A stretch of DNA of 64,000 nt, from contig JAJVIN010000017.1 in assembly GCA_022071945.1 (NCBI GenBank), forward strand, positions 31,251-95,250. Reading direction: 5' to 3'. Of this stretch, positions 12,481 through 54,966 are shown piece by piece. The DNA is from Thermoanaerobaculia bacterium (lineage in GTDB: Bacteria > Acidobacteriota > Thermoanaerobaculia > UBA5066). The notes beneath the pieces were generated by a model that was not told the origin of the DNA, ran no database searches, and was given only the letters and a program-made list of their open reading frames with translations. Position 1 is the stretch's first letter, and each line of letters starts with the position of its first letter. The translations under genes were made by a program, and so were the position numbers.

Positions 12481-12652
12481 GAGAACTCGCCGGAAGAATA
12501 GCGCGTCCTGACGGGCGCGGCCCCTGACGCTCACGAGGAGAAGGCACCGGACGTCTCTCCCGGTGTGCGCGGGCGGGCCTGGCCGGAGTGGAGAGGGCGT
12601 CGTTCCCCGATCCTTGACTTCCCGCAGGCGACCGTTCAGTCTCCGCGCGAAG

Positions 12653-19596: not shown

Positions 19597-19805
19597 TGAA
19601 TTCACCTCGGCAGCAGCGGCATGCTCTCCCATGGTATCTCCAGGTACGTTGGCCATGCAGAAAGAGTTGCCTGGAGCCCGAGTCTCCCTGACCTGTCCGA
19701 AAAGAGGGCCGGCTTGCGACGGACTTGGCAAAAGGGACACACCGGAAGGCGGCCGTTCGTAGAATCGAGCGGGGTGAGCCGCTGCCCACCCAGCAGGAGG
19801 TCGTC

Positions 19806-21674: not shown

Positions 21675-21715
21675 AACGGGCTGGCTGAAAAGCGAGGCGG
21701 CGGCCACGAACGGCA

Positions 21716-24595: not shown

Positions 24596-25885
24596 CTAGA
24601 CGACGGTTCCCGGCTTGATGAGGGTGTCCTTCGGGACGATGACGACCCCGTCCCGCAGATACCAGCCATCCCCGTCCTCGTCCGGGCGCGCCGGATTGCC
24701 ACGGAGGATCGAGCCGGCCCCGATCCTCGCGTTCTTGTCGATGATGGCCCTCTCGATGATGCAGTCCGGACCGATGCCGGCCGCGGGGATGCCGCGGGCC
24801 AGATTCGCCGCCCGAAGCTCGTCGTCCTCGAAGAAGTCGTTTCCCATGAGGATCGCGTCCTTCAGGCGGGCTCCCCTCTGGATCCGGGTCCTCACGCCGA
24901 CGACACAGTGGTCGAGCTCAGAGCCGTAGATGAGGCACCCGTCACTGATGATGCTTCTCTCCACCTTGACGTCGAGGTACCGGGAGGCCGGCAGGAAGCG
25001 GAGCCGCGTGAAGATCGGAGCTGTTTCGTGGAAGAACCGGAAGGAGGGGTGCTCCTCGGTCAATTCGAGATTCGCCTGGAAGAACGACGAGATCGTTCCG
25101 ATGTCTCTCCAGTAGCCCTTGAAGAGGAAGGAGTAGACACCGTGTGAACCGATGAGGCGCGGCAGGATGTCTTTTCCGAAGTCGAGATTCTGGGGATCGG
25201 CGAGGGCGTCACGGAGAACCCCCATCCGGAAGATGTAGACCCCCATGCTCGCGACGAACTGGCCCTCCGGGAGTCCCCATCTTTCCCTCAGCTCGAGGGG
25301 CGGAGCCAAGGACCGGATGTCCTCGTCAGGCTTGGGTTTCTCCTTGAAGGCATAGACGCGACCGTCCGACTTGGCCGAGAGGATCCCGAAGCCATCGCAC
25401 TCCTTCCGAGAGACCGGGATGACGCTCACGGTCACGTCGGCACTCGTCCGGACGTGCTGGTCGTACATCTCCCCATAGTCCATGCGGTAGAGGTGGTCGC
25501 CCGACAGGATCATGACGTGGTCGTAGGCGTTCTCGTCGATGTTCTTCAAGAGCTTGCGGACGGCGTCGGCGGTGCCCTCGAACCACTCGCCCCCCTCCTC
25601 GGTCTGCTGGGCGGCGAAGATCTCGACGCTTCCTCTGCCGAACACGTCGAATCTATAGGTATCCGAGATGTGCCGGTTCAAAGACGCGGACATGAACTGA
25701 GTCAGGACTGCGATCCGCCGGAAACCCGAGTTGATCGCGTTAGAAACGGGAATGTCGATGAGCCGGTACTTGGCGCCGAGGGGGACGGCAGGCTTGGCTC
25801 GATGACGTGTGAGGGGATAGAGGCGGGTTCCGCGTCCTCCCCCAAGGATGACGGTGTAGACACGATGACGGGAGGCGTCAGTCAT
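24596..25885 (-). CDS. glgC: Glucose-1-phosphate adenylyltransferase
   Basis: MTDASRHRVYTVILGGGRGTRLYPLTRHRAKPAVPLGAKYRLIDIPVSNAINSGF is the canonical GlgC N-terminus. Left-handed beta-helix C-terminus. Start chosen at the ATG at 25885. The ORF extends to 25930. Confidence 0.9.
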   Translation of the reverse strand: MTDASRHRVYTVILGGGRGTRLYPLTRHRAKPAVPLGAKYRLIDIPVSNAINSGFRRIAVLTQFMSASLNRHISDTYRFDVFGRGSVEIFAAQQTEEGGEWFEGTADAVRKLLKNIDENAYDHVMILSGDHLYRMDYGEMYDQHVRTSADVTVSVIPVSRKECDGFGILSAKSDGRVYAFKEKPKPDEDIRSLAPPLELRERWGLPEGQFVASMGVYIFRMGVLRDALADPQNLDFGKDILPRLIGSHGVYSFLFKGYWRDIGTISSFFQANLELTEEHPSFRFFHETAPIFTRLRFLPASRYLDVKVERSIISDGCLIYGSELDHCVVGVRTRIQRGARLKDAILMGNDFFEDDELRAANLARGIPAAGIGPDCIIERAIIDKNARIGAGSILRGNPARPDEDGDGWYLRDGVVIVPKDTLIKPGTVV

Positions 25886-26071
25886 GCATTCCTCTCTGCC
25901 TCGCCATCTTAGCTCAGCGTCATGAATCAAACGGACTATGCCGTCTAGACCAAAAAACGCATCAAAAGATCCAAATCATGCAAAGCGTGCGTTATGTCGA
26001 AATGATGGCGATGTGCGCTAGACTTCGACTCCAGTGGTCGCATTCGGACCCGCTTACCGGAGGGCTGAATC

Positions 26072-33158: not shown

Positions 33159-33968
33159 ATGAAGAAGCTCCTGCGTCTATCCATTCTCGGCCTCGCGGCC
33201 GCCGTCCTGGCGGGCCCGGTTCTCGCCCAGGAGGTCAGTTTCAAGGACCCATCCGGGGATGACTTTGGTCCGGGCGCGTACACCTACCCGACCGACAAGG
33301 TTTACAAGAACGGTTCGTTCGACCTTGCCGGCTTCTCCATGAAGGTGAAGGGAGACAAGGCCGATTTCCAGGTGACCCTCAACAGCTCCCTCGAGGACCC
33401 CTGGGGCATGGGCAATGGTTTCGCCGTCCAGATGGTGTTCATCTTCATCCAGACCGACGTCAAGGAAGGCCGCTTCACCAAGACCCTCCCGGGCCTCAAC
33501 GTCCAGTTCGGGCCGGAGGACGGCTGGAACAAATGCGTTATCCTCTCCCCCCAGCCGCAGAACCGTGTCATGAGCGAAGTCGAGAGCAAGGCCTCCTGGG
33601 CAAAGAACGCGGTCGTGGTTCCGGTCCGGACCCGTGGCGCCGGCCGCGCCATCTCCGGGTCGGTTGACCTTTCCGCCCTCGGCGCGGGCGACCCGACCAA
33701 GTGGGGCTACCAGGTCATCGTGCAATCCAACGAGGGCTTCCCGGATGCCGGCGACGTCCTGACCCGGAAGGTCAACGAGTTCGAGGGCCAGCACCGCTTC
33801 GGCGGCGGCACCGATACCGACTGCGACCCGCACGCGATCGACCTCGTCGCGGGCAAGGGAACCGGCGACAAGAGTGAAATCGAAGAGCAGAAGAAGATGC
33901 TCGCCTACGAGTGCAACCCGGATGGCTCTGCCAAGAAGCTGGCGACCATCACCATGATCCGCAAGTGA
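33159..33968 (+). CDS. Secreted glucodextranase-like C-terminal domain protein
   Basis: Signal peptide MKKLLRLSILGLAAAVLAGPVLA. DPSGDDFGPGAYTYPTD matches the motif of the glucodextranase-like domain found in amylopullulanases. Confidence 0.55.
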   Translation: MKKLLRLSILGLAAAVLAGPVLAQEVSFKDPSGDDFGPGAYTYPTDKVYKNGSFDLAGFSMKVKGDKADFQVTLNSSLEDPWGMGNGFAVQMVFIFIQTDVKEGRFTKTLPGLNVQFGPEDGWNKCVILSPQPQNRVMSEVESKASWAKNAVVVPVRTRGAGRAISGSVDLSALGAGDPTKWGYQVIVQSNEGFPDAGDVLTRKVNEFEGQHRFGGGTDTDCDPHAIDLVAGKGTGDKSEIEEQKKMLAYECNPDGSAKKLATITMIRK

Positions 33969-34006
33969 AGCGGACGAACGACAACCTGACTCACTGGAGG
34001 AGTTGT

Positions 34007-36202
34007 ATGCGCTTTTCGAGAAAGCTAGCTCTCCTGGCGGCGGCTGCGGTCTTTTCGACCTCGGCGTTCGCGCAGCAGGGCCCCAAACTGACCATCGGTG
34101 GAACCACCTATACCAAGTGGCTCTGGGGCAACGCCCGCGACCAGGGCGCCCTCTTCAACTTCAAGGATGCGCCGGGCGAGGGCTGGGGCGACAACGGTCA
34201 GGGGACCGAGATCGAGCTCCTGCTCAAGGCCAAGGTCTCCCGGGCCGTCCAAGTGGACGCTCGCCTTCACAGCCGGTTCTACCAGAACTTCTGGACGAAC
34301 ATGGGCGGCTGGGGCAACCCCTCTGGCGGGAACGACTGCGCCTCTTCGGGGACGTCGGTCGGCTGTGGTGAGTTCGACCCGCGCTCGAACCAGTACGTCA
34401 AGCTCCGTGGCGTCACCGTCACCCTGACCCCCGGCTACAAGTGGATCGACTCCGCCACGATCGGTTCCTCCGACTGGGGCATGTTCGACCCGTTCGTCGT
34501 GGGCCGCATCCGCTACATCGACCGTGACAACGTCGCGGGTCTCCTCTTCCAGGGCTCCGCGATGGGCCGGAAGATGACCTGGGACGTCGCCCGCATCTCT
34601 CTGCCGCGCCTGTTCGCCGGCCCCTCCTACAACACCGGGAACTTCCACGCCGCCGACGGCGCCTACGTCTTCCAGTCGAAGATCGCGCCGAACTCGATGT
34701 TCGACATGACCGCCCTCATGGAGTGGGTGAACGACCTCGAGGTCAATGCCAAGGACATCAACTGGGACAACGGCAAGGAAACCCGGATGCGGTTCCGCCA
34801 GACCGTCTTCGGCGGCAAGCTCGGCTTCCACCCGAGCGCCAAGGTCGACGTCCGCGCCGCTGGCTACTACTCGACCTACGAGTCCGCCAACGACCTGGCC
34901 CCCGCGGACTTCTTCGGCGTCTCCGGCTTCTCTCCGGTCCCCGCTGGCAAGCACAAGGACTGGAGCGGAAAGCTCAACCTCGACTTCATCGATCCGTTCG
35001 ACGTCGGCCTGACGTTCAACATCGAAGCGTTCCACATCGGCGCCGAGTACGCGTCAGTGATGGCTGCCCGCCGTGAGTCCGACGTCCTCCTCACCGAGGG
35101 CCACGACGGCACATGGTCGGCCCCTGGCCCGACGAACGCCTCCTACGGCGTGTTCGGTGGCAACCCGACGATCATCGGCTACGGCGGCTGGTCCGGAAAC
35201 GCCCAGCAGGTCGCGACGATCAACGTCGACAACCAGTTCACCGACTTCAACGAGCCCATGGCCGAGAGCGCCATCGGTTGGGAAGGCATCACCTTCCAGC
35301 CGGTGTTCCAGAAGGGCGCCCTGGACATGGCCGCCGAGTACAGCTACATCTCCTACGACACGAACTGGCAGGCCTGGGGCAACCCGAACCGGGCGATCCT
35401 CTCCTCCCTGTATCCGAACATGGAGTCCGACGCCGGTCTCGGCCACTACCGCAATGCCTACGCGCCGTTCCAGGACAAGACCACCCAGATCGCTCTCGTC
35501 CGCGGCAAGTACGTCCTGCCGGTCGGCAAGGGCATCGACCTGTTCGGCAAGATCAAGTTCATCGACGAGACCGACAAGCGCATGAACGAGGCCCGCTACC
35601 TCCCCTACAAGGCGGGTGACTGCGCGACTTCCGGGACCCTGGGCTGCAAGGGCGAGAAGAACTTCTACTCCCCCGGCAACTCCACCGCCGATCTCTACGG
35701 CAACCCCGAAGTCATCACGGTCAACGGCGTGACCGGCTACAAGTGGAAGCCGTTCAACAGCCTCTCCGACGACGACCGCGACATGAGCTACTTCATGTTC
35801 AACCTCGGCGGCGGATACCAGTTCACGAACGACTTCTACTCCTCGCTCGAGTACGTCCGCTACAACGTCGACCTCAAGGACGGAAACACCGCGTTCCAGG
35901 CCTACAACCTGCACGAGATGGCTTCCGGCTACCACAAGAAGAACCAGATCATCTGGAAGATCCGTTACACGCTCGGCGGCATCTCCGAGTGCGGCATGGA
36001 GTACCAGTACAACTTCGGCTCTTTCGAGCCCGACTTCGGCGGCGGCTTCGTTCCGCAGCGCGCCTCGGCCGACGTGGCCAACAGCAATCACGTCGAGCCC
36101 GGCTCGCTTGGCTTCCAGAACCGCTTCGGCGGCTGGAACAGCCTCGAGACCAGGGACTTCAGCCACCAGCGCCTCAAGGCGTACATGAAGATCCTCTTCT
36201 AA
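34007..36202 (+). CDS. Outer-membrane beta-barrel protein, candidate maltodextrin porin of the locus
   Basis: RBS GGAGG lies 6 nt upstream. Signal peptide MRFSRKLALLAAAAVFSTSAFA. Aromatic and Gly-rich amphipathic strands throughout. C-terminal ...YMKILF with a terminal Phe, typical of BAM-dependent barrels. Confidence 0.6.
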   Translation: MRFSRKLALLAAAAVFSTSAFAQQGPKLTIGGTTYTKWLWGNARDQGALFNFKDAPGEGWGDNGQGTEIELLLKAKVSRAVQVDARLHSRFYQNFWTNMGGWGNPSGGNDCASSGTSVGCGEFDPRSNQYVKLRGVTVTLTPGYKWIDSATIGSSDWGMFDPFVVGRIRYIDRDNVAGLLFQGSAMGRKMTWDVARISLPRLFAGPSYNTGNFHAADGAYVFQSKIAPNSMFDMTALMEWVNDLEVNAKDINWDNGKETRMRFRQTVFGGKLGFHPSAKVDVRAAGYYSTYESANDLAPADFFGVSGFSPVPAGKHKDWSGKLNLDFIDPFDVGLTFNIEAFHIGAEYASVMAARRESDVLLTEGHDGTWSAPGPTNASYGVFGGNPTIIGYGGWSGNAQQVATINVDNQFTDFNEPMAESAIGWEGITFQPVFQKGALDMAAEYSYISYDTNWQAWGNPNRAILSSLYPNMESDAGLGHYRNAYAPFQDKTTQIALVRGKYVLPVGKGIDLFGKIKFIDETDKRMNEARYLPYKAGDCATSGTLGCKGEKNFYSPGNSTADLYGNPEVITVNGVTGYKWKPFNSLSDDDRDMSYFMFNLGGGYQFTNDFYSSLEYVRYNVDLKDGNTAFQAYNLHEMASGYHKKNQIIWKIRYTLGGISECGMEYQYNFGSFEPDFGGGFVPQRASADVANSNHVEPGSLGFQNRFGGWNSLETRDFSHQRLKAYMKILF

Positions 36203-45065: not shown

Positions 45066-48000
45066 GTGTCAGAGGAGGCCTCGATGAGCTACGCCGCTGT
45101 CGAACCGGAAGTCCCCTGGCTGGGAAGTCCTCGCTTCCGCAGGGTCCTCTCCACCGTGATCCTGGCCGCGCTCCTTCTGTTCCTCGTCGGGAGCGTCAGG
45201 GTCGCCTTGAAGAAGCCATCGGGCTCGCAGGTCTTCCTTTATGGCCAGACGGCTCTCTCGCCCGGAAAACCGGCTTCCTTCCGAGCTTTCGTGCTCGATT
45301 CCCGGGATCGCCGGCCCCTATCCGGGGCGGCCGTTTCGGCCAGGCTCGTCTCGGCTTCCGGAAAGTCCCGTCCCCTCGCTCAGGTGAAGACCGGCGAGGA
45401 TGGAACCGTCCAGATCTCCGGCGAGATCCCGCCGGATCTCCCGGAAGGCAGCTACAGGCTCGCCGTCGAGGCGGACTCTGCCGCCGGGACGAGCGAAGTC
45501 GCGCGCGACGTTTCGGTGAAACGCTCTTTTCGGACCATGGTCTCGACAGACAAGCCGATCTATCAGCCGGGACAGACCATCCACATCCGGACACTTTCCC
45601 TGCACAGCTCCGATCTGGCTCCAGTCGAGAAGCGGCCCGTCACGATCACGGTGCAGGATCCCAAGGGCAACAAGGTCTTCAAGGCCCTCAAGACCACGTC
45701 CGCATACGGGATCGCATCGGCTGACTTCGTGCTCGCCGACCAGGTCAACACCGGCGACTATGCAATCGAGGCCGTCCTGGGCGACACCGTCTCGCGCCGC
45801 AGCGTGGAAGTGAAGGTCTACACCCTTCCCAAGTACCGGATCGAGCTCTCGACGCAGCGCGGCTATTTCCAGCCGGGAGAAACCGCCGCCGTGACCCTCC
45901 GGGCGACGTACACGTTCGGCAAACCCGTGCGCGAGGCCGAGATCGTCATCACGGCCCAGGAGTTCATCGAGAAGTTCAGGCCTTTCGCCGAGGTCCGGGG
46001 CGAGACCGATGCCGAAGGGCGCTTTCGCGCCGAGATTCCCCTGCCGCGAACCTTCGCCGGCCAGGGTGTCAGGAAGGGCGACGCTCCGCTGAAGATCGAG
46101 GCAAAGGTCACGGACAAGGCGGGCCACACCCAGGAGCGTTCCCTCGACCTGACCGTCTCCGAGGAGCCGATCCGCGTCGAGGCATTCCCCGAGAGCGGCG
46201 TGCTCGTCCCCCGGGTCGAGAACATCGTCTACATCGTGACGGCCTACCCCGATGGACGGCCGGCCGAGACCACCCTGACCGTCGGAAAGGATTCGAGGTC
46301 CGTGAAGACCTCGGCTTACGGCATCGCGAAGGTCACCCTGATACCCGATGGTGGAGACCTCTCGGTGCCCATCCGGGCGACCGACTCACACGGTGCTTCC
46401 GTCTCGGTCACGCGGACGCTCAAACCGGGACCAGCGGACGGGTTCATCCTGCGCACAAGCCGGCCGGTCTACCGCGCCGGCGAGACCGCGCACCTCTCGA
46501 TCCTGTCCGCGGCCGAGTCAGGACGGGTCTTCGTCGACGCGGTCAAGGGAGGCCAGACCGTCCTGACGGACACGGTCGACATCAAGGGGCACCACGGGGA
46601 GCTGGCTCTCGATATCAGCCCCGACCTCGCCGGCACGATCGAGGTGCACGCCTACCGGCTCCTGCCAAACGGAGAGTTCGTCAGGGACAGCCGAGTCATC
46701 CAGGTGGAGCCGGCCTCGGACCTTTCGATCGGAGTGGAGCTCGACCGGGAGACCTATCGCCCCGGCGAAAAGGCGCTCTTGAAGTTCCTCGTCGAGAGGA
46801 GGAAGGGGGAGCCCGTTCAGGCGGCTCTCAGCCTCGCCGGCGTCGACGAGGCCGTCTTCGCGCTCTCCGAGATGCGCCCCGGCCTCGAGGAAGTCTTCTT
46901 CCTCCTCCAGGAGGAGATCCTGAAACCCCGCTGGGAGCTTCATGCGGCCCTGCCGGTTGCGCCCGGGAGCGTGCTTGCCGAAGGTGGCGAGCCGCGTCCA
47001 GACCGGGAGGAGGCAAAAAAGGTCCTCTTTGCGGCGGCGGGCGGATGCTCGGCGCCCCAGGTCACCGTCAGCAAGGGATACGAAGAGAAGGTCCGGCAAA
47101 CGCGGGACGAGAAGCGTGCGTACGCGCGACACGTCCTGGCGGGGCTCGCGCTCCTTCCGACGCTCCTCTTCGCCATCTCCACCCTTCTCCTCGGCTTCTA
47201 CGCGGTCGTCCGGCTGATTCACAGGGGTCAACCGGCGGACCTGAGCGCGGAGCATCACGCAGAGCTGCGGTCCACTTCGGGGTGGGTGATCTGGACCTGG
47301 ATGCTCACTCCGTACCTCGTGCTCGCGACCGCGGCGGGCTCGGCCGCGCTTCTCGGCCGGGTCTCGTACCGGTGGGAGAAGGGGGCCGGGGTCCTGGCGG
47401 CCCTGGTCCATCTCGCCCTCTTCGTCGTCCTTCTCAGGGCGGCGAAACGCTGGAAGAGTTCCCCCGCGGCAACCGCGACTCCCCTTCTGAGGAAGCTCCT
47501 CTGGACCGTTCCCACAGCTAGCATTTGCCTCGGACTCGGGTTTGTCGCGCTTCTTCTGGGACTTCAGGGCTACCCCCGTGTGATCCCCGAGGAGCTCGGC
47601 GCGATCGCCCTGGGGACGCTTCTGACCGGCACCCTGCTCATGGCGGGTTTTCTCGCGATCGCGCGCCAGTGCGCGCTCCGGCCGGCCAGCGCGGGTCGCT
47701 GGTTCTGGCTTCTTCTCAGCCGCCCGGCGGCCCTGGCGCTGCCCGCTCTTCTCATGGCGCTCGTCGCCTTCGCCGGGGCTCGACGGTCCAGCCCCATGTT
47801 GGCCGGAAAGATCGCGGATGACGGAGCGATGCGGCTCGAGATGGCCCCGCCGGCCGCCGCCGAGGCGAAAAAGCAGGACGTGATTGGCGCGCCTGCCGGC
47901 ACGCTCGTGGAACCCACGCGAGTCCGCCGGTTCTTCCCGGAAACGCTCTTCTTCCTGCCCGAGGTCATCACGGACGCGGAAGGGAAAGCCCAGGTCGAGA

Positions 48001-50024
48001 TCCCGCTCGCCGACTCCATCACGACCTGGAGGGTCGGGATGAGCGCGGTCTCGGGAAAGGGAGAACTCGGCAGTCGAGACGTGGGCCTGAGAGTCTTCCA
48101 GGACTTCTTCGTCGACGTCGACTTCCCCGCCACTCTGACCCAGCACGACTCCGTGAGCGTCCCTCTGGCCGTCTACAACTACCTCTCCGCCGCTCAGACC
48201 GTGGAGCTCGAGGTGCAGCCGGGAGACTGGTTCGAGTTGAAGGGGGATCGGGTCCGGAGGCTGAGCGTGGGACCGGGCCAGGTCACGAGCGTGTCTCTCG
48301 ACATCCGGGCCCTGAAGCCAGGCCGGCACGGCTTGACGGTGAAGGCCCGGGGCTCCTCGCAGGGAGATGCGGTCGAGCGGACGGTCACCGTCGCTCCCGA
48401 TGGCCGCCCCGTGGTCGAGACCTGGAGCGGCCGCCTTTCAGGGAAGGCCGGCCAGACGTTTACGATCCCCGAGACGGCCATCGACGGGGCGAACGATCTC
48501 TTCGTGAAGATCTACCCGGGATCCTTCAGCCAGGTCGTGGAAGGGCTCGATTCGATCCTCCGCATGCCGTCCGGCTGCTTCGAGCAGACCTCCTCGACGA
48601 CCTACCCGAACGTCCTCGTCCTCGACTACCTCAGGCGCACGAAGCAGGCCAGACCGAAGGTCGAGATGAAGGCCGCCGAGTACATCAACCTCGGCTACCA
48701 GCGCCTTCTCTCGTACGAGGTTCAAGGAGGGGGATTCGAGTGGTTCGGGAAAGCCCCCGCGCACATCGTTCTGACCGCCTACGGGCTTCTCGAGTTCCAT
48801 GACATGTCCAAGGTCCACGAAGTGGATCCCGCCGTCATCGAGAGGACGCGAAAGTGGCTCTATGGTCAGCAGAAGGCAGATGGAACGTGGGAGCCGGCCG
48901 CCGGGGGGATCGCCGAGGGGGCCATCAACGCCTTTCAGGGGGCCACGCTCCGCACGACGGCGTACGTCGCGTGGGCCCTGGCGGAGACGGGGGACAAGGA
49001 TCCTCGGCTCGGCCGTGCTCTCGATCACCTCTCGCGCCCCTCGACGTGGCAGGCCGCCGGGGACGACGCCTACGCCCTCGCCCTGACCGGCAACGCCCTC
49101 GCCTCTGCTGGCCGGAATTCCGAGGCGGCTCCCGTTCTCGAGAAGTTGATGAAGCTCTCGGTTGCCGAAGGAGAGACCCTCCACTGGCAACCGAAGTCCT
49201 CCGGGGTCACCGAGTCTCGTGGGAGAGCCTTCGAGATCGAGACGACGTCGATCGCGGCTCAGGCCCTGATGAAGTCCCAGTACGACGTGGCCGCCGCGCA
49301 CAAGGCGCTCGCCTGGCTCGTTTCGAAGAAGGACTCCTTCGGCACGTGGAGCTCGACCCAGGCGACCATTCAGGCGATGAGGGCCCTGCTCGGAGGGTCC
49401 GAGCCGGGTGGTGGGAAAGGGAGCGCCAAGGTTGCCGTCGCGGCAAATGGTCGCTCCGTCGAGTCGCTCGAGATCACACCCGAGACGAGTGATGTCTTTC
49501 GCCTCGTCAGCCTGAGGAATGAAGTGCGGCCGGGTCAGAACGAGGTCGCCATCGAGCTGACGGGCGAGGGGAACCTCGCCTACCAGATCGTGGCGACGCA
49601 CTACGTGCCGTGGGGCGCCAGGAGTGAGGCGAAAGAAGAGCCCGCTATGTCGATCGAGCTCACCTACGACACCAGGCAGGTCAGAAGAGATGCGATCCTG
49701 AAGGTTGGGGCCCTCGTCAGGTACAACCGGCCGGGCGCGGCCAGGATGGTGGTCGTCGACCTCGGCATCCCTCCGGGCTTCGATGTCGATCCGAAAACCT
49801 TCGAGGACATGAAAGCGACCGGCCGAATCGAGCGCTTCTCCTTGACCTCCCGTCAGGTGATCCTCTACATCGAGGAGCTCGAAAACGAAAAGGCGCTCGC
49901 GTTCTCGTACACGCTTCGGGCCCGGTACCCGGTGAGGGCAAAGACGCCGGTCTCGGCCGCCTACCCCTACTACGAACCCGAGGCCCGGAGCGAGGCCAAA
50001 CCCACGGAGCTCGTGATCGAGTAG
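45066..50024 (+). CDS. Alpha-2-macroglobulin family protein (MG domains, thioester motif CFEQ) with an internal polytopic membrane insertion
   Basis: 1652 aa. N-terminal signal anchor. Repeated MG/bMG beta-sandwich regions. GCFEQTSSTTYPNV is a thioester-like CxEQ. Residues around 685-930 form 6-8 strongly hydrophobic helices in the same uninterrupted frame. Confidence 0.8.
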   Translation: MSEEASMSYAAVEPEVPWLGSPRFRRVLSTVILAALLLFLVGSVRVALKKPSGSQVFLYGQTALSPGKPASFRAFVLDSRDRRPLSGAAVSARLVSASGKSRPLAQVKTGEDGTVQISGEIPPDLPEGSYRLAVEADSAAGTSEVARDVSVKRSFRTMVSTDKPIYQPGQTIHIRTLSLHSSDLAPVEKRPVTITVQDPKGNKVFKALKTTSAYGIASADFVLADQVNTGDYAIEAVLGDTVSRRSVEVKVYTLPKYRIELSTQRGYFQPGETAAVTLRATYTFGKPVREAEIVITAQEFIEKFRPFAEVRGETDAEGRFRAEIPLPRTFAGQGVRKGDAPLKIEAKVTDKAGHTQERSLDLTVSEEPIRVEAFPESGVLVPRVENIVYIVTAYPDGRPAETTLTVGKDSRSVKTSAYGIAKVTLIPDGGDLSVPIRATDSHGASVSVTRTLKPGPADGFILRTSRPVYRAGETAHLSILSAAESGRVFVDAVKGGQTVLTDTVDIKGHHGELALDISPDLAGTIEVHAYRLLPNGEFVRDSRVIQVEPASDLSIGVELDRETYRPGEKALLKFLVERRKGEPVQAALSLAGVDEAVFALSEMRPGLEEVFFLLQEEILKPRWELHAALPVAPGSVLAEGGEPRPDREEAKKVLFAAAGGCSAPQVTVSKGYEEKVRQTRDEKRAYARHVLAGLALLPTLLFAISTLLLGFYAVVRLIHRGQPADLSAEHHAELRSTSGWVIWTWMLTPYLVLATAAGSAALLGRVSYRWEKGAGVLAALVHLALFVVLLRAAKRWKSSPAATATPLLRKLLWTVPTASICLGLGFVALLLGLQGYPRVIPEELGAIALGTLLTGTLLMAGFLAIARQCALRPASAGRWFWLLLSRPAALALPALLMALVAFAGARRSSPMLAGKIADDGAMRLEMAPPAAAEAKKQDVIGAPAGTLVEPTRVRRFFPETLFFLPEVITDAEGKAQVEIPLADSITTWRVGMSAVSGKGELGSRDVGLRVFQDFFVDVDFPATLTQHDSVSVPLAVYNYLSAAQTVELEVQPGDWFELKGDRVRRLSVGPGQVTSVSLDIRALKPGRHGLTVKARGSSQGDAVERTVTVAPDGRPVVETWSGRLSGKAGQTFTIPETAIDGANDLFVKIYPGSFSQVVEGLDSILRMPSGCFEQTSSTTYPNVLVLDYLRRTKQARPKVEMKAAEYINLGYQRLLSYEVQGGGFEWFGKAPAHIVLTAYGLLEFHDMSKVHEVDPAVIERTRKWLYGQQKADGTWEPAAGGIAEGAINAFQGATLRTTAYVAWALAETGDKDPRLGRALDHLSRPSTWQAAGDDAYALALTGNALASAGRNSEAAPVLEKLMKLSVAEGETLHWQPKSSGVTESRGRAFEIETTSIAAQALMKSQYDVAAAHKALAWLVSKKDSFGTWSSTQATIQAMRALLGGSEPGGGKGSAKVAVAANGRSVESLEITPETSDVFRLVSLRNEVRPGQNEVAIELTGEGNLAYQIVATHYVPWGARSEAKEEPAMSIELTYDTRQVRRDAILKVGALVRYNRPGAARMVVVDLGIPPGFDVDPKTFEDMKATGRIERFSLTSRQVILYIEELENEKALAFSYTLRARYPVRAKTPVSAAYPYYEPEARSEAKPTELVIE

Positions 50025-50061: not shown

Positions 50062-53000
50062 TCACGGGGAACCGGACTCGGCTGCCTTCTCTCTGTGGCA
50101 GCTCGCGAGGTGTTCCCGGATCTCCTCGAGGGCTTGACGGGCCTCCGCGAAGTCGAGGCGAGAAATCTGGTTCTCGAGCTCTCTCACGATGTCCGCCGGA
50201 CAGAGCGAGTGCAGAGTGGGCCGGACCATCTTGAAGAGCGTCAGAGCCTCGAGGTTCTGCTCGCCGAGGCGAACGTCGAGATGGGCGAGGAGATCGCCGA
50301 GAGCGCCGGGATCGAGAGTGTGCGGGAGCTCCCCGTCTCCTGCCACAAGGCCGTCCGATTCGACCCAGCACCCCGCCAGGGCTCTCTCGAGAACCTCGAC
50401 CGCCTCTTCCCTGATGCCCCCCTCGGCCGCGGCGGATTCGATGTCTCTCGCGGCATCGGCAATGGCCTTTGCGGAAAGAGTCGCCGCGGATCCCTTGAGA
50501 GTGTGGGAGATGTGCTTGATCTCCTCGAAATCCCGCCTCTTCTCGGCCTCTCGAATCCGGCGCGGGTCGTCGCGATGCTGGAAAACGAAGTCGGACACGA
50601 CCTCGACGAGGAGGGTCCGGTTTCCGGAGAAGCGCCTCAGCGCCGTCGCCTCGTCTATCCCGAAAAGCCGCGCCTGCGCCTCGCCGGCGACTGGGTTTGG
50701 CATCCTTGGGCCAGGCGCGGCAGAGGCGAGCGGAGCGTGCAGGAGCTCCGCGAGCACCTCGGTCAGGCTCTCGGGTTCGAGGGGTTTGGCGACGTGGGCG
50801 GACATTCCAGCGGCGAGGAGCCGGCGGGCTTCCTCGGGATCCGAGTGCGCCGTCATCGCCACGACGGGGAGGTCGGGGTACTTCTCGCGAATGTGGCGCA
50901 AGGTGGCGAGCCCTCCCATTCGGGGCATCTCGATGTCGAGGAGGACGATCTCAGGTGGACCTTCCTTCTGCATGAGCTCGAGGGCTTCCTCTCCGTCAGC
51001 TGCCTCCAGGACCTCGTAGGAAGCTCCGGCAAGGACTTGCCGCGCCATCGTCCGGTTCACCGGGTCGTCGTCGGCCACGAGGACCCGAGACGGCCTCGGC
51101 GCGCTCTCCCTTGGAATGGAAAGTGAAGGACGTCTCAGGACTCCGGAGGCCTTCTCGCGCTCGAACCGCAGACCCAGGCGTCCCTCGATCAGGCCGAAGA
51201 TCGCTTCTTCCCGGTAGGGCTTGAAGAGGACGTCGTCAGCCCCGGCCGTGCGAAGGGCTCCCGATTCGGACTCGAAGACGCTGGCGGTCTGCGCCACGAT
51301 CACCGTTCGCGTACGGCCGGTTCGTGCCTCTTCCTGGCGAATCCGCTCCGTCGCCTCCCGTCCGTCCATCACGGGCATCCTCACGTCCATGAACACGAGG
51401 TGGGGAGCCCACTCGCGCCAGAGGGTGAGGGCTTCCTGCCCGTTGGCCGCTGTCTTGACATCCAGCCCGACGGTCGTCAGAAGGGTCGAGAGGAGGGAGC
51501 GGTTCTCGAAGGTATCGTCCACCACGGCGATGCGCGGAGAGGTCTGCCCGGCCGCCAGCCTGGTGATCCGGGCGGGTTCGGTCCTCGCCGGCCTTTGGTC
51601 CGAGCGCGGGAGAGCCACCTCGAAACGGAACGTGGTGCCCTCTCCCTTCTTGCTCGACACGGCAATCGACCCGTCCATCAGCTCCACGATCCGCTTGGTG
51701 ATCGCAAGGCCGAGCCCGGTTCCCTCCCGAACCGAGCGGCCGGATTCGGTCTGCACGAACGGCGTGAAGAGCTTGCCGATCTCTTCTTCCGCGATCCCGA
51801 TCCCCGTGTCGGAGACGGCGAAGGAAGCCCGTCCCTCCCTCCAGGCCGCCACGAGCGAGACCGTCCCGGCCGTATCCCTGGCCAGGGAGGCACCGGCAGT
51901 CCTCCTGGCAGACCGGTCTTCCAGCGCGGCCGCCGTGAACTTCACGGCATTGCCCAGGAGGTTGATCAGGACTTGCCGGAGCTTTCCTGGATCTCCGAGA
52001 ACCACAGGGGGGAGCTCGCTCGAAAGCTCGACCGAGAACCTCAGATCCGCCTCCTCGCAACGGGCCGTGAACATCCGCTCGACGGTCTGGATGAGCTCCT
52101 TCAGGTCGAAGGGCTCCGCGTCGAGCGTCATCTTTCCCGCCTCGATCTTCGAGATCGAAAGGACCTGGTTGATCAGCGAGAGCAGGTGCTCGCCGCTTCG
52201 CAGGATGATCGAGAGATGGTCCCTGTCCGCCGGGGTCAGGGTCGAGCTTCTCTTCATGAGACGCGCGAACCCGAGAACCGCATTCAAGGGGGTGCGCAGC
52301 TCGTGGCTCATGTTCGCGAGGAAGACGCTCTTGGCATCGCTCGCCTCCAGGGCGCGCTGTTCCGAATCCCTCAACTCACGGGTCCGTTCCCGAACGAGCG
52401 CATGGAGCACCGACTGGCGTTGCCGCATCAGGTGAAGCCGGATCCTGTAGAGCGGCCACGTCAGGCTCACGAGGAGGAGGACCGCCGCGATCCGGAAGGG
52501 AAGGCGCTGGTAGAGCGCGGGTTCGATGGTGACGGGCAGGGCCAGGGCAGACGTGCCAAACACCCCCTCACGGTTGGAGCCCTGGGCTTCGAGCGTGTAG
52601 GTGCCGGGGGGCAACGAAGTGTAGGTCGTGGTGCGGTGGGAGGCATCGGCCTGGCGCCATTCGCGGTCGAAACCCGAAAGCCGGTAGCGGTAGCGGATCC
52701 GCGAAGGCGCGGAGAAGTCGAGGGCGGCGAACTCGAAGGCGACGGACTCGTGGCCCGGTGAAAGCCGGAGCCGGGAGAGCCCGTGAGGCACCCAGGGCCG
52801 TCCATCCACCAACAGGGAGGTCAGGACGATGGGAGGAGAAAAGCTCCAGTCCAGAAGCCCCCGCGGATCGATGAGGAGAAGCCCGTCGGGGCCCCCGAAA
52901 ACCAGCTGCCCGGAGCGGGTTTCGATGGCCGCGCCTTGCCAGATCGAGCGTCCCGTCCCTTCATCTGGCCCGAAGTGGCGAATCGCGAAAGTTGTGGGAT

Positions 53001-54966
53001 CGAACCTGAGAGTGTCCTCGACCCAGATCTTCCCCGCTCGATCCTCCAGCAGGTTGTCGCACCGTTCGTTGGCGACACCGAGCCGCGCCGAGAGATCGAT
53101 GAAGGCCGCCGCCTTCCCGTCGAATCCAGAAAGCTCGACGATCCCCGAGCTCAGCCCGGCAAAGAGCCTTCCCGATGCGGTCGAGAGGAGATCGATCGGA
53201 CTTCCCGGCGGGAGCGTCCCCGAGGTGTTCTCCTTGGTGCTCAGACGGATGAAGCGTGTTGCTCCCGGAGGCAGGACGGCCAGGCCAGTCGGAGATGCGA
53301 CCCAGAGGGCGTCCCCGTGCCAGGCGATGTCGGTGATCCCGCCCATGATTCTCTTTCCGTCCGTGAACGCCGCCGCCTCGGCCGCTCCCTTCTCGAAGTC
53401 GAAAAACCCGAGACCCGCCGTCGATCCGACCCACAGGCCGCGGCCCTCGCGATCCGGGAGCAGCGTGCTGATACGTCCCGTCGTCTTGCCGAAGGCCTGG
53501 GCCGTGAACCACTCGATTCGTCCCGTGCGGCGGTCGAGCCGATTGAGGGTTCCGGAGGTCCCCAGCCAGATCGCCCCGTCCGCCGTTTCCGTCATGGCGC
53601 CGACTCGGCCCTGGTCCAGCGACCGGCCGTCCTTCGGCCCTGGCCTGTACCCCGCCACTCTCCGTGCGCTATCGAACACGTCGGCCCCGTTGGAATGCGT
53701 TCCGACCCAGAGAAAGCCATCCGAGGATTCGAAGACCGACTCCACCTCTTCCGCCGACAAGCCGTCCGGCCGCAGGGGCGAGTGACGGAGGAGCCGGATC
53801 CCGGCCTCCGCCGGGCTGTAACGGACGAGGCCGCTTCCGATCGTCCCGATCCAGACGAGACCGCTCTCATCCACGAGCAGGCTGGAGATCCGGTTGCTCG
53901 ATACAGACTCCGGCACGGAGGCGTCGTGCCGATAGACCGCGCGGAGCTCGCCGCTTCTGGAATCGCGGACTTCGACCCCGTTCGCCGGGGTGCCGAGCCA
54001 GATCGTCTCGTCGTCCGTCTGGGCGAATGCATAGGCCCGAGCCTCCGGTTCGAGAAACCGTGCCCGGCCCGAGGCGGGATCGACCCGGGCAACACCTCCT
54101 CCGAAGATGCCCACCCAGATCGCGCCATCCCGCGCCTCGTGCAGGCGATACACCGGCCGTCCGGAGAGAGACTCCCCTCCTCCCGCCTTCTCGTCCGCCA
54201 CGGCCTCCACGCCGCCGCTTTGGCGGCGGACGGCGAGACCCGCGGCGCTGCCAATGAAGAGATCGCCGCGGCGGGAGAGGAGCAAAGCACCCAGCCGCGA
54301 CCGGTCCGGATCGAGAGAACCCTTCGGACGCGGGTCGACCCGGGTCACGGCGAGGCCCTTCGGCTCGACGAGATCGAGGCCGCCGGCACCGGAAACCCAC
54401 ATCTTCCCGTCCGGACGCTCGGCGATATCCCGGATGCTGTCCGACGCCAGGCCCTTGGGCGAGGCTGACAGGTTCTGAAACGACTCCGTCGCCGGGTCGA
54501 AGATCGACAGGCCCGAGTCGTCCGTCCCGATCCAGACCTTGCCATCCCTGGCTCCCCGGATCACCCGAATCCGGTTGCCCGAAAGCGACCTGGGATCGCG
54601 GGCATCGCGCCGGAAGACGCGAAACGTGTATCCGTCGTAGCGGACCACCCCGTCATGGGTGCCGATCCACAGGAATCCCGTTCGGTCCTGCGCCAGGCAC
54701 GTGACGTCCCGCTCGGGAATGGAACGCGAGTCTCCGACACGATGGAAGATGGGCTCTCCGAGCTGGTACTTCAGCTCGGGGCCTTCACGAGCCTGGGCCG
54801 GCGCGACGAAGAGCGCGGCGAAGAGCGCCGCGAGGAGGATCCCCTGGCCGACCGCGAGCCGCGCCGCGCCCTTTCCGGGGCGAACCGAGCCTTCCTCGTA
54901 GCGGAAGACCGCTCCCCGACACGCATCCAGGGCGCGCCTTGGCGACTCGGGCTTTGGGGGAACCAC
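50062..54966 (-). CDS. Hybrid sensor histidine kinase/response regulator: periplasmic regulator-propeller repeats, Y_Y_Y, TM, HisKA, HATPase_c, two receiver domains and a C-terminal HPt domain
   Basis: 1634 aa. H-box MSHELRTPLNAVLGF. HATPase DTGIGI. Two CheY-like blocks (RIAVVDD..., RVLVADDD...). HPt HTLKGSAATL. Confidence 0.9.
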   Translation of the reverse strand: MVPPKPESPRRALDACRGAVFRYEEGSVRPGKGAARLAVGQGILLAALFAALFVAPAQAREGPELKYQLGEPIFHRVGDSRSIPERDVTCLAQDRTGFLWIGTHDGVVRYDGYTFRVFRRDARDPRSLSGNRIRVIRGARDGKVWIGTDDSGLSIFDPATESFQNLSASPKGLASDSIRDIAERPDGKMWVSGAGGLDLVEPKGLAVTRVDPRPKGSLDPDRSRLGALLLSRRGDLFIGSAAGLAVRRQSGGVEAVADEKAGGGESLSGRPVYRLHEARDGAIWVGIFGGGVARVDPASGRARFLEPEARAYAFAQTDDETIWLGTPANGVEVRDSRSGELRAVYRHDASVPESVSSNRISSLLVDESGLVWIGTIGSGLVRYSPAEAGIRLLRHSPLRPDGLSAEEVESVFESSDGFLWVGTHSNGADVFDSARRVAGYRPGPKDGRSLDQGRVGAMTETADGAIWLGTSGTLNRLDRRTGRIEWFTAQAFGKTTGRISTLLPDREGRGLWVGSTAGLGFFDFEKGAAEAAAFTDGKRIMGGITDIAWHGDALWVASPTGLAVLPPGATRFIRLSTKENTSGTLPPGSPIDLLSTASGRLFAGLSSGIVELSGFDGKAAAFIDLSARLGVANERCDNLLEDRAGKIWVEDTLRFDPTTFAIRHFGPDEGTGRSIWQGAAIETRSGQLVFGGPDGLLLIDPRGLLDWSFSPPIVLTSLLVDGRPWVPHGLSRLRLSPGHESVAFEFAALDFSAPSRIRYRYRLSGFDREWRQADASHRTTTYTSLPPGTYTLEAQGSNREGVFGTSALALPVTIEPALYQRLPFRIAAVLLLVSLTWPLYRIRLHLMRQRQSVLHALVRERTRELRDSEQRALEASDAKSVFLANMSHELRTPLNAVLGFARLMKRSSTLTPADRDHLSIILRSGEHLLSLINQVLSISKIEAGKMTLDAEPFDLKELIQTVERMFTARCEEADLRFSVELSSELPPVVLGDPGKLRQVLINLLGNAVKFTAAALEDRSARRTAGASLARDTAGTVSLVAAWREGRASFAVSDTGIGIAEEEIGKLFTPFVQTESGRSVREGTGLGLAITKRIVELMDGSIAVSSKKGEGTTFRFEVALPRSDQRPARTEPARITRLAAGQTSPRIAVVDDTFENRSLLSTLLTTVGLDVKTAANGQEALTLWREWAPHLVFMDVRMPVMDGREATERIRQEEARTGRTRTVIVAQTASVFESESGALRTAGADDVLFKPYREEAIFGLIEGRLGLRFEREKASGVLRRPSLSIPRESAPRPSRVLVADDDPVNRTMARQVLAGASYEVLEAADGEEALELMQKEGPPEIVLLDIEMPRMGGLATLRHIREKYPDLPVVAMTAHSDPEEARRLLAAGMSAHVAKPLEPESLTEVLAELLHAPLASAAPGPRMPNPVAGEAQARLFGIDEATALRRFSGNRTLLVEVVSDFVFQHRDDPRRIREAEKRRDFEEIKHISHTLKGSAATLSAKAIADAARDIESAAAEGGIREEAVEVLERALAGCWVESDGLVAGDGELPHTLDPGALGDLLAHLDVRLGEQNLEALTLFKMVRPTLHSLCPADIVRELENQISRLDFAEARQALEEIREHLASCHREKAAESGSP

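What the first reader, a model, noticed from the sequence alone, without database searches (positions are those of the whole stretch)
45066..50024. Alpha-2-macroglobulin-like protein with a putative thioester and an internal block of 6-8 transmembrane helices, without a pbpC partner
Bacterial A2M homologues (ECAM/YfhM type) are periplasmic lipoproteins of about 1650 aa and usually sit next to pbpC. This 1652-aa protein has the expected MG-domain architecture and a thioester-like GCFEQ. In the same uninterrupted frame, however, residues around 685-930 are strongly hydrophobic and helix-like (LAGLALLPTLLFAISTLLLGFYAVV..., LALFVVLL..., ICLGLGFVALLLGL..., ALGTLLTGTLLMAGFLAI..., ALALPALLMALVAFAGA). 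Neighbouring MG domains are beta-rich and hydrophilic. No PBP1c gene is adjacent. The gene is divergent from the secreted esterase-repeat protein.
Basis: seen in the sequence. Interest (0 to 1): 0.5.

Follow-up and report, generated by a model that had tools for sequence, protein, structure and literature searches.

The report
Membrane-embedded thioester alpha-2-macroglobulin
This Acidobacteria gene encodes a complement/alpha-2-macroglobulin-type thioester protein that carries a six-helix membrane bundle exactly where such proteins normally have their protease "bait". I found no description of this design, and most relatives are fused to an anti-sigma domain and paired with an ECF sigma factor.

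Summary
ORF 45066-50024 (+) encodes a thioester protein of the eukaryote A2M/C3/CD109 type (probable start ATG 45084). Pfam finds MG2, MG3, A2M_BRD, A2M, TED_complement and A2M_recep, and GCFEQ sits at residues 1170-1174.

Hydropathy, AlphaFold2 (pLDDT 92 for the block) and a family-wide positive-inside pattern all point to six transmembrane helices (residues 689-905) plus an N-terminal anchor helix. The block sits at the bait-region site. A roughly 45-residue disordered, hypervariable linker follows it, just before the invariant RxRxxFPET.

It is not ECAM-type: there is no lipobox, no bMG domains and no pbpC.

About 72 of 97 relatives carry an extra N-terminal cytoplasmic domain, zf-HC2 in about 24 of them. 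All five such relatives whose contigs were read have an ECF sigma gene immediately upstream. The window's copy belongs to a short-tailed, stand-alone subclade.

Best reading: an inner-membrane-integrated protease trap or sensor. This is a new variant of a known kind. I found no description in the literature searched.

The parts
45066..50024 (+). Whole ORF: thioester-containing alpha-2-macroglobulin/TEP with seven predicted transmembrane helices. It is 1652 aa from GTG 45066, or 1646 aa from the probable start ATG 45084.
45072..45086 (+). Shine-Dalgarno GAGGAGG (45072-45078) and the probable true start codon ATG (45084-45086).
   Evidence: Read directly from the sequence. Orthologues P0001, P0002 and P0003 start MSYAAVEPEV.
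45084..45149 (+). Short cytoplasmic N-terminal tail carrying the family-wide juxtamembrane motif VEPExxWLGxRRF. W18 is in 100% and F24 in 91% of 69 block-bearing sequences. In long-form relatives an anti-sigma-type domain precedes this motif.
45150..45206 (+). N-terminal signal-anchor helix TM0 (residues 29-47; AF2 helix 22-47). There is no lipobox and no Cys in the first 60 residues.
45225..46865 (+). Periplasmic MG1-MG6 beta-sandwich domains (Pfam MG2, MG3, A2M_BRD).
46866..47078 (+). Conserved helical segment (EMRPGLEEVFFLLQEEILKPR) followed by a variable, lower-confidence linker that leads into the membrane block (residues 601-671).
47079..47780 (+). Stalk helix plus six-helix transmembrane bundle (residues 672-905). 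Hydrophobic cores are about 689-716, 739-763, 771-795, 814-834, 844-866 and 880-905. Loops 1-2, 3-4 and 5-6 are cytoplasmic and carry the conserved motifs YAxxRLxxRxP, RxRRx7PLLRK and ARxCAxRxxSxxRW. Both ends of the block are periplasmic.
47781..47915 (+). Disordered, hypervariable linker of about 45 residues (906-950). It lies directly before RVRRFFPET, which is the canonical bait position.
   Evidence: pLDDT below 50 over 905-945. Column identity is 0.30. Query residue 951 aligns to residue 729 of human A2M chain 6tav_A, which I place (from memory of the bait boundaries) just after the bait.
47916..48212 (+). Invariant RxRxxFPET motif, the second half of MG6, and MG7 (Pfam A2M domain, residues 960-1049).
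48525..49388 (+). Thioester domain (TED_complement, residues 1154-1441). Glu1284 occupies the position of the C3/CD109 catalytic His and the A2M Asn.
48573..48587 (+). Thioester motif GCFEQ (residues 1170-1174). It reads GCFEQT in all 120 listed homologues.
49740..49994 (+). C-terminal MG8/receptor-binding-type domain (A2M_recep, residues 1559-1643).

Best explanation
The gene encodes a thioester protein of the eukaryote A2M/C3/CD109 type that is built into the cytoplasmic membrane of an Acidobacteriota bacterium.

**Topology.**
- A 20-residue cytoplasmic tail leads into anchor helix TM0.
- MG1-MG6 lie in the periplasm.
- A stalk helix leads into a six-helix membrane bundle inserted at the bait-region site. 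Both ends of the bundle face the periplasm.
- A roughly 45-residue disordered, hypervariable linker follows the bundle.
- The rest of MG6, then MG7, CUB, the thioester domain and MG8 all lie in the periplasm.

**Shown.** The domain order, the thioester motif, the six hydrophobic helices, their conservation, the position of the insertion and the disordered linker.

**Inferred mechanism.**
- The disordered linker acts as the bait.
- A protease that reaches the membrane surface cuts it.
- The MG/TED assembly then rearranges as in A2M and C3.
- The exposed thioester links the attacker covalently to a molecule that stays held in the membrane by seven helices. The thioester is probably amine-reactive, because the catalytic-His position holds Glu.
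- The result is a membrane-tethered protease trap or sentinel.

**Family context.** In most relatives the same body carries an N-terminal cytoplasmic anti-sigma-type domain and is co-transcribed with an ECF sigma factor. The family as a whole therefore looks like a transmembrane sensing device. The window's copy belongs to a subclade with only the conserved juxtamembrane tail and no sigma partner, so it most likely acts as a stand-alone trap.
For: **Identity.**
- phmmer against PDB gives human A2M 2.7e-66, then A2ML1, CD109, TEP1, C3 and C4.
- Foldseek of the AF2 model puts CD109, C4b, C3 and A2ML1 at the top.
- GCFEQT is invariant in all 120 listed homologues.

**Membrane block.**
- Hydropathy peaks occur only at the N-terminus and at 689-906.
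- AF2 predicts six long helices, with pLDDT 81-94 in context and 92.2 (pTM 0.85) alone.
- Across 69 sequences, net loop charge is +2.0, -0.1, +4.5, -0.9 and +2.3 for successive loops. Both ends of the block therefore lie outside.
- The block is kept in the 107 best-ranked of the 120 listed homologues. It is also present in Chloroflexota, Vulcanimicrobiota, Myxococcales and Uabimicrobium genomes.

**Bait position.**
- The block plus linker lies between A2M_BRD and RxRxxFPET.
- Query residue 951 aligns to residue 729 of human A2M chain 6tav_A, which I place just after the bait from memory of the bait boundaries.
- Residues 905-945 have pLDDT below 50. They are the least conserved stretch, with column identity 0.30 against 0.62-0.69 in the MG domains.

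**Thioester chemistry.** Glu1284 aligns with the CD109 His and the A2M Asn.

**Family link to sigma factors.**
- Of 97 homologues with a detectable N-terminal anchor helix, 24 have HxxxCxxC and 48 have other long N-termini. Ten further homologues could not be classed.
- P0081's N-terminus matches zf-HC2 at 8.5e-09.
- An ECF sigma gene lies immediately upstream in 5 of 5 long forms looked up, with a 4-bp overlap in 2.

**Stand-alone status of the window's copy.**
- It has no sigma gene and no pbpC.
- Short-form orthologues have unrelated neighbours.
- The window's protein sits in an all-short clade in a rough NJ tree.
Against: - No biochemical data exist. Protease trapping, thioester formation and bait cleavage are all inferred by homology.
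- Model coordinates and PAE were not available. Whether TM0 packs against the six-helix bundle is therefore unknown.
- A simple membrane anchor would not need six helices in addition to TM0. It would also not need conserved motifs in the cytoplasmic loops and tail. This hints at a function on the cytoplasmic side that the trap model does not explain.
- Cutting the linker after TM6 would free the C-terminal half from its membrane tether. That half would then be held only through MG6, so membrane retention of the captured protease is an assumption.
- No TM-prediction program was available. Topology rests on Kyte-Doolittle hydropathy, AF2 and the charge rule.
Confidence: 0.6

Rival explanations
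1. Transmembrane signalling receptor rather than trap. Activation of the periplasmic A2M 'spring', by bait cleavage or by nucleophile attack on the thioester, would be passed through the seven-helix assembly to the conserved cytoplasmic face. The anti-sigma/ECF-sigma-coupled relatives appear to work this way. The window's copy would signal to a partner encoded elsewhere.
For: - About 72 of 97 classifiable block-bearing homologues carry a cytoplasmic N-terminal domain.
- An ECF sigma gene lies immediately upstream in 5 of 5 long forms examined.
- The best-conserved positions of the block lie in the predicted cytoplasmic loops.
- The N-terminal tail motif, with W18 in 100% of sequences, is kept even in the short forms.
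Against: - The window's protein has only a 20-residue tail and no anti-sigma domain.
- No ECF sigma of this type occurs anywhere in the window.
- No neighbour is conserved among short-form orthologues.
- The adjacent histidine kinase is convergent and is not conserved among orthologues.
- Relatives with a zinc-finger N-terminal domain exist with only a 2-TM hairpin at the bait site (P0081 and L057; L057 also has an ECF sigma gene upstream). The six-helix bundle is therefore not needed for that pairing.
Confidence: 0.2
2. Covalent surface-attachment or opsonin-like protein. The thioester would attach the membrane-anchored molecule to non-protease targets such as polysaccharide, prey or neighbouring cells, or the cell's own envelope polymers. 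It would act as C3/TEPs do, or as the thioester adhesins of Gram-positive bacteria do.
For: - The closest structural matches include C3, C4 and CD109, not only protease inhibitors.
- The block-bearing form is common in Chloroflexota. From general knowledge, many of these are thought to lack an outer membrane, which would expose the protein at the cell surface.
Against: - Glu occupies the position of the catalytic His that C3 and C4B use for hydroxyl attack. This favours amine targets, as in A2M and C4A.
- In a diderm Acidobacterium the protein would sit beneath the outer membrane.
- A disordered, hypervariable, bait-like linker is retained.
Confidence: 0.1
3. The hydrophobic stretch is not a membrane domain. 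It would instead be buried helices of a soluble insert, or a product of mis-assembly or frameshift that fused a membrane-protein gene into an A2M gene.
For: - No dedicated TM predictor was run.
Against: - There are six segments of 20 or more residues with mean hydropathy above 2.0.
- The positive-inside alternation is conserved.
- The single uninterrupted frame is kept in more than 100 homologues from independent assemblies and several phyla.
- The helix count is even also in the 2-TM variants.
Confidence: 0.03
4. An ordinary ECAM/YfhM-type periplasmic lipoprotein A2M whose pbpC partner simply lies elsewhere in the genome.
For: - Similar length (about 1650 aa).
- A thioester is present.
- ECAM and Salmonella A2M appear among the fold matches, at ranks 30 and 50.
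Against: - There is no lipobox, and no Cys in the first 60 residues.
- The Pfam bMG families do not match, with bMG5 at only E=0.09. The eukaryote-type families match strongly.
- No ECAM chain appears among the 60 PDB sequence matches shown, of 69 found.
- No GT51 motif occurs in the 64-kb window.
- None of the homologue loci looked up carries pbpC.
Confidence: 0.02

Closest known systems
Eukaryotic alpha-2-macroglobulin / A2ML1 / CD109 / insect TEP1 / complement C3-C4 (thioester-containing protein superfamily)
   Same: - It has the same Pfam domain set and order: MG2/MG3, A2M_BRD, A2M, TED_complement, A2M_recep.
- It has a GCxEQ thioester.
- The invariant RxxFPET follows straight after the bait/ANA site.
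- These are the best sequence and fold matches.
- Like CD109, it is membrane-attached.
   Different: - At the site where A2M has a bait of about 40 residues and C3 has the anaphylatoxin domain, this protein has a six-helix transmembrane bundle plus a disordered linker.
- It also has an N-terminal anchor helix instead of a cleaved signal peptide. CD109 is held by a GPI anchor (from general knowledge).
- Glu replaces His/Asn at the catalytic position.
Type I bacterial A2M (E. coli ECAM/YfhM, Salmonella Sa-A2M)
   Same: - Bacterial.
- About 1650 aa.
- Carries a thioester.
- Attached to the inner membrane and faces the periplasm.
- Presumed to guard the envelope against proteases.
   Different: - ECAM is a lipoprotein with bacterial-type MG domains, and its gene is usually linked to pbpC (PMC4498604, PMC5764988).
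- The window's protein has no lipobox, no bMG matches and no pbpC. It is polytopic.
- ECAM ranks well below the eukaryotic proteins in both fold and sequence searches.
Type II bacterial A2M (Pseudomonas MagD, mag operon)
   Same: A large multi-MG-domain A2M homologue associated with the inner membrane.
   Different: - MagD lacks the thioester and works within a six-gene mag operon (PMC5764988, PMC3735191).
- The window's protein has GCFEQ and is a stand-alone gene.
Membrane-bound class I anti-sigma factors with a zinc-binding anti-sigma domain (RsiW/RslA type), paired with ECF sigma factors
   Same: Many homologues of the window's protein have an N-terminal zf-HC2 domain, then a TM helix. An ECF sigma gene lies directly upstream and in some cases overlaps.
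   Different: - The window's copy lacks both the anti-sigma domain and the sigma gene.
- In the relatives the extracytoplasmic part is a roughly 1600-residue thioester A2M with seven TM helices.
- The main text of the ECF classification paper does not mention such a type. It lists anti-sigma factors with 1, 2, 3, 4 or 6 TM helices (PMC7826278).

Membership tests
A2M/TEP superfamily (eukaryote-type domain set) | Chain of macroglobulin (MG) beta-sandwich domains, including the split MG6/bait-region domain | tested here: met
   Pfam MG2 1.9e-36, MG3, A2M_BRD 6.8e-16, A2M 3.1e-19. The AF2 model is all-beta outside the block. Foldseek gives CD109, C3 and A2M at E about 1e-40 to 1e-31.
A2M/TEP superfamily (eukaryote-type domain set) | Thioester domain with a CxEQ motif | tested here: met
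   TED_complement 1e-47. GCFEQ at 1170-1174. The motif is invariant in 120 homologues.
A2M/TEP superfamily (eukaryote-type domain set) | C-terminal MG8/receptor-binding domain | tested here: met
   A2M_recep 4.6e-13, residues 1559-1643.
A2M/TEP superfamily (eukaryote-type domain set) | Exposed, protease-sensitive bait (or ANA-type insert) immediately before RxxFPET | tested here: inconclusive
   A disordered (pLDDT below 50), hypervariable linker of about 45 residues is in the right place. It is preceded by a 6-TM bundle that no known member has. Protease sensitivity was not tested.
A2M/TEP superfamily (eukaryote-type domain set) | Formed thioester, and a conformational change with covalent capture after cleavage | not testable with these tools
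   Needs biochemistry: methylamine sensitivity, autolytic fragmentation, adduct mapping.
Type I bacterial A2M (ECAM/YfhM) | Lipoprotein signal peptide with a lipobox Cys | tested here: not met
   There is no Cys in the first 60 residues. The N-terminus is a conserved tail followed by a 19-26-residue anchor helix.
Type I bacterial A2M (ECAM/YfhM) | Bacterial-type MG domain families (bMG3, bMG5, bMG6, bMG10) | tested here: not met
   Only bMG5 appears, at E=0.091 and below its cut-off. NCBIfam has no A2M model hit.
Type I bacterial A2M (ECAM/YfhM) | Gene linked to pbpC (PBP1c) | tested here: not met
   The neighbours are an esterase and a histidine kinase. No GT51 motif occurs in the window. None of 11 homologue loci (10 distinct homologues) carries pbpC.
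Type II bacterial A2M (MagD) | No thioester; encoded in the mag operon | tested here: not met
   GCFEQ is present. The gene is monocistronic, lying between a divergent and a convergent neighbour.
Class I (ZAS) anti-sigma factor / ECF sigma pair | N-terminal cytoplasmic anti-sigma domain (HxxxCxxC / zf-HC2) | tested here: not met
   The window's protein has only a 20-residue tail. The feature is met in 24 homologues, and P0081's N-terminus matches zf-HC2 at 8.5e-09.
Class I (ZAS) anti-sigma factor / ECF sigma pair | Cognate ECF sigma gene adjacent | tested here: not met
   No ECF sigma is detected in the window with a profile built from the partner sigmas. The feature is met in 5 of 5 long-form homologues.

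The most novel reading that the evidence does not exclude
The block-bearing proteins form a previously unrecognised class of bacterial receptor. In it, a complement/A2M-type spring-loaded thioester machine sits on a seven-helix membrane assembly. It would convert an extracytoplasmic proteolytic or nucleophilic attack on its bait or thioester into a cytoplasmic signal. In most members that signal would be release of an ECF sigma factor from the fused anti-sigma domain. The window's short-tailed copy would be either the ancestral or an output-stripped form that still uses the conserved cytoplasmic face (VEPExxWLGxRRF plus the loop motifs).
Probability: 0.3. Interest if true: 0.85.

Novelty: new variant of a known kind. 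Interest (0 to 1): 0.66.

Why it matters
The papers retrieved describe two classes of bacterial A2M: the thioester lipoproteins linked to pbpC, and the thioester-less MagD type. This gene represents a third design that is widespread in environmental phyla.

- It has the domain set of animal A2M, C3 and CD109.
- It is polytopic.
- Its membrane bundle is placed at the one site that controls activation in all thioester proteins.

Most relatives appear to be anti-sigma factors of ECF sigma factors. If so, that would be a direct link between a complement-like protease-sensing machine and bacterial transcription.

The design also gives a natural system for asking how bait cleavage is coupled mechanically to the rest of the molecule.

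The same site carries other inserts in sister clades: a 2-TM hairpin, a block of about 10 TM helices, or a pseudopilin-like domain. It therefore looks like an evolutionary hotspot worth studying.

Tried and rejected
- **Free-standing ancestor of the block.** A profile of 27 block sequences, searched against 1.84 billion representative proteins, found 73 hits. Those that could be placed are A2M genes or their fragments; about 20 hits under 400 aa carry none of the marker motifs and are presumed fragments.
- **ECAM-type with a distant pbpC.** Rejected.
- **Anti-sigma role for the window's own copy.** Rejected, because there is no such domain and no sigma gene.
- **Pfam support for the non-zinc long N-terminal domains.** None was found. 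Their anti-sigma role rests only on sigma-gene adjacency.
- **Conserved partner genes of short-form orthologues.** None was found.
- **Anti-phage defence link.** PADLOC gives no hit.
- **Promoter and terminator consensus scans at both ends of the gene.** Nothing was found.
- **Literature.** Five full-text searches on A2M, bait, transmembrane, anti-sigma and Planctomycetes terms found no description. The ECF classification paper does not mention A2M/MG2, and its supplements are not held.
- **Source organism in GTDB representatives.** The best locus is only 47% identical. GlgC identifies the source as an Acidobacteria MAG.
- **TM0-bundle packing.** I could not inspect model coordinates or PAE, so this question stays open.
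Full report
**What is there**

The longest ORF at the stated place runs 45066..50024 on the + strand and is 1652 aa.
- The true start is probably ATG 45084. It is preceded by GAGGAGG at 45072-45078.
- The closest orthologues all begin MSYAAVEPEV.
- Residue numbers here count from GTG 45066, as in the finding.

Pfam finds MG2 (three stretches), MG3, A2M_BRD (462-600), A2M (960-1049), TED_complement (1154-1441, E=1e-47) and A2M_recep (1559-1643). Nothing matches residues 600-960. NCBIfam has no model for the protein. The thioester motif GCFEQ is at 1170-1174.

**The hydrophobic block**

- Kyte-Doolittle windows at or above 1.6 occur only at the N-terminus and between 689 and 906.
- AlphaFold2 on residues 1-1150 with 76 aligned sequences gave mean pLDDT 85.8. 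The MG domains are all-beta. The predicted helices are 22-47, 672-718, 728-763, 769-798, 814-834, 842-871 and 876-905. Residues 905-945 fall below pLDDT 50.
- The block alone (659-916) gave pLDDT 92.2 and pTM 0.85, again with six long helices.
- Across 69 block-bearing sequences, the net charges of the five connecting loops are +2.0, -0.1, +4.5, -0.9 and +2.3. This fits the positive-inside rule. It puts both ends of the block, and so both beta-rich halves of the protein, on the periplasmic side.
- The N-terminal helix has Arg residues before it. It has no lipobox, and no Cys occurs in the first 60 residues. I read it as a signal anchor.
- The total is seven membrane helices: one at the N-terminus and six in the block. 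The one missed is 739-763.
- The drop in AT skew to -0.34 at 47250-47749 fits hydrophobic codons read in this frame.

**Where the block sits**

It lies between A2M_BRD and the invariant motif RxRxxFPET (R952, R954, F957, P958, E959 and T960 are each in 100% of sequences).
- phmmer aligns query residue 951 to residue 729 of human A2M chain 6tav_A. From memory of the bait boundaries, I place that residue just after the bait region.
- The six-helix bundle therefore occupies the site of the A2M bait and of the C3 anaphylatoxin domain.
- The roughly 45 residues after the bundle (906-950) are disordered in the model. They are also the least conserved part of the protein, with column identity 0.30. 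The block scores 0.38 and the MG domains 0.62-0.69. Hypervariability and disorder are what one expects of a bait.

**Which kind of A2M**

By sequence the nearest solved proteins are human A2M (2.7e-66), A2ML1, CD109, TEP1, C3 and C4. By fold the top hits are CD109, C4b, C3 and A2ML1. ECAM ranks 30th and Salmonella A2M 50th.

Three further points separate it from ECAM:
- It has no lipobox.
- It has no bMG domain matches.
- It has no pbpC. The neighbours are a divergent pectin-acetylesterase-like gene and a convergent hybrid histidine kinase, and no GT51 motif occurs in the window.

The papers retrieved describe two bacterial types: thioester lipoproteins linked to pbpC, and the thioester-less MagD type (PMC5764988, PMC4498604, PMC3735191). 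This protein fits neither.

In the TED alignment, Glu1284 (conserved GGIAEGAIN) takes the place of the CD109 His and the A2M Asn. From what is known of C4A versus C4B, an acidic residue there suggests direct reaction with amines. This is an inference.

**Conservation and spread**

- The homologue search returned 1691 proteins at E<=1e-10.
- The best 107 of the 120 listed (39-97% identity) keep the block. All 120 keep GCFEQT.
- Named sources include Planctomycetota, Phycisphaerae, Verrucomicrobiota, Kiritimatiellae, Thermoanaerobaculaceae and Deltaproteobacteria.
- GTDB genomes add Anaerolineae and other Chloroflexota, Vulcanimicrobiota, a Bacillota MAG, Myxococcales and Candidatus Uabimicrobium.
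- The block evolves fast: it is 15-34% identical to the query where the whole protein is 40-50% identical. Its hydrophobic pattern is nonetheless kept.
- A profile of the block searched against 1.84 billion representative proteins found only 73 hits. Those that could be placed are A2M genes or their fragments.
- The block is therefore specific to this lineage and has no recognisable relative.
- The window's GlgC is 100% identical to a protein of an 'Acidobacteria bacterium' MAG. The host is therefore a diderm, and the protein should sit in the inner membrane facing the periplasm.

**The unexpected family context**

Of 97 homologues with a detectable N-terminal anchor helix:
- 25 have a short N-terminus like the window's copy.
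- 24 have a long N-terminus with HxxxCxxC. P0081's N-terminus matches zf-HC2 at 8.5e-09.
- 48 have other long helical N-termini. These have no Pfam match.

Ten further homologues could not be classed this way.

I looked up the contigs of five long forms of three N-terminal types. Every one has an ECF sigma gene (Sigma70_r2 plus r4_2) immediately upstream on the same strand. In two of them it overlaps the A2M gene by 4 bp.

The short forms differ. The window's copy, four short orthologues and the Chloroflexota copies have no such sigma gene and no shared neighbours. A rough NJ tree places the window's protein in an all-short clade next to the zinc-finger clade.

All block-bearing members, short or long, share the cytoplasmic juxtamembrane motif VEPExxWLGxRRF, with W18 in 100% of sequences. 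The best-conserved positions of the block lie in the predicted cytoplasmic loops.

**How it most likely works**

Shown:
- the architecture and the thioester motif;
- seven hydrophobic helices with a consistent topology;
- the bait-site location;
- the disordered linker;
- the sigma-gene adjacency in relatives.

Inferred:
- The linker 906-950 is the bait.
- Cleavage by a protease that reaches the inner membrane releases the A2M-type rearrangement.
- The thioester then captures the protease on a molecule fixed in the membrane.

I give this trap/sentinel reading about 0.6.

The main rival is that the seven-helix assembly passes the activation event to the cytoplasm, as the sigma-coupled relatives suggest. 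The window's copy would then act through an unknown partner (0.2). The conserved cytoplasmic face argues for that rival. The missing output domain, and the existence of sigma-coupled relatives with only a 2-TM hairpin, argue against it.

A covalent-adhesin reading is possible but less likely (0.1). An artefact or soluble-domain reading (0.03) and an ECAM-type reading (0.02) are close to excluded.

**Novelty**

Five full-text searches found no description of an A2M with a transmembrane insert or of an A2M-type anti-sigma factor. The main text of the ECF sigma classification paper does not mention A2M or MG2. It lists anti-sigma factors with 1, 2, 3, 4 or 6 membrane helices, and its supplements could not be read.

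Absence from this library is not proof that nobody has seen it. I rate the finding a new variant of a known kind.

**Limits**

- No TM-prediction program was available.
- I had no access to model coordinates or PAE.
- The tree is a rough NJ tree with midpoint rooting.
- Sigma adjacency was checked in five long forms only.
- All functional statements rest on homology.

Noticed in passing
window 45066-45086: The longest-ORF start GTG 45066 is probably not the real start. ATG 45084 has a strong Shine-Dalgarno sequence (GAGGAGG, 45072-45078) and matches the N-termini of orthologues, which begin MSYAAVEPEV.
   Followed up: yes
homologues P0108-P0115; loci L039, L058, L059, L066, L083 (bait-region site): Sister-clade A2Ms without membrane helices carry a soluble insert at the same site. 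It has the pseudopilin hallmark DPWG(N)xY, and PF08334 (T2SS protein G) is precomputed for P0109, P0115 and P0119. I know of no description of a GspG-like domain inside an A2M bait region.
   Followed up: partly
P0081; L057:2260-7374; P0116; L064: Other variants of the insert exist. P0081 and L057 have a 2-TM hairpin, both with a zinc-finger anti-sigma N-terminus, and L057 has an ECF sigma gene upstream. P0116 (2055 aa) and L064 have roughly ten helices. The bait site looks like a hotspot for inserts that re-enter the membrane, apparently with an even number of helices (clear for the 2-TM hairpins; the ~10-helix counts are rough).
   Followed up: partly
L001:1465-2016, L002:7289-7897, L085:4441-5004, L086:4456-5004, L087:4440-4958: ECF sigma factor genes lie directly upstream of long-form, block-bearing A2M genes, overlapping them by 4 bp in two loci. 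This implies sigma/anti-sigma pairs in which the anti-sigma factor is a roughly 1700-residue thioester A2M with seven membrane helices.
   Followed up: partly
window 48915-48917 (Glu1284): The TED position that holds the catalytic His in C3, C4B and CD109, and Asn in A2M, is a conserved Glu (GGIAEGAIN). It recalls the Asp of C4A and suggests an amine-reactive thioester.
   Followed up: partly
window 61465-63879 (+): A secreted thermolysin-type (M4) metallopeptidase with an FTP propeptide motif and a weak CUB-like C-terminal region. It is a possible endogenous protease that a membrane-bound A2M could guard against. It is not adjacent to the A2M gene.
   Followed up: no
window 50062-54966 (-) and 9172-12708 (-): Two very large histidine kinases with Reg_prop beta-propeller repeats and a Y_Y_Y domain; the first is a hybrid kinase with receiver and Hpt domains. 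That first one is convergent with the A2M gene, with only 37 bp between the stop codons. It is not conserved next to orthologues.
   Followed up: partly
window 33911-36202 (+) and 19602-21707 (-): Long ORFs of 763 aa and 701 aa with no Pfam match at E<=1e-4. In this 66% GC sequence they may be real unknown genes or spurious ORFs.
   Followed up: no
window 24596-25930 (-): GlgC here is 100% identical to a protein annotated 'MAG: Acidobacteria bacterium' in NCBI. The next-nearest named hits are Acidobacteria and Thermoanaerobaculia. This identifies the source lineage. The best GTDB-representative locus for the A2M is only 47% identical.
   Followed up: yes
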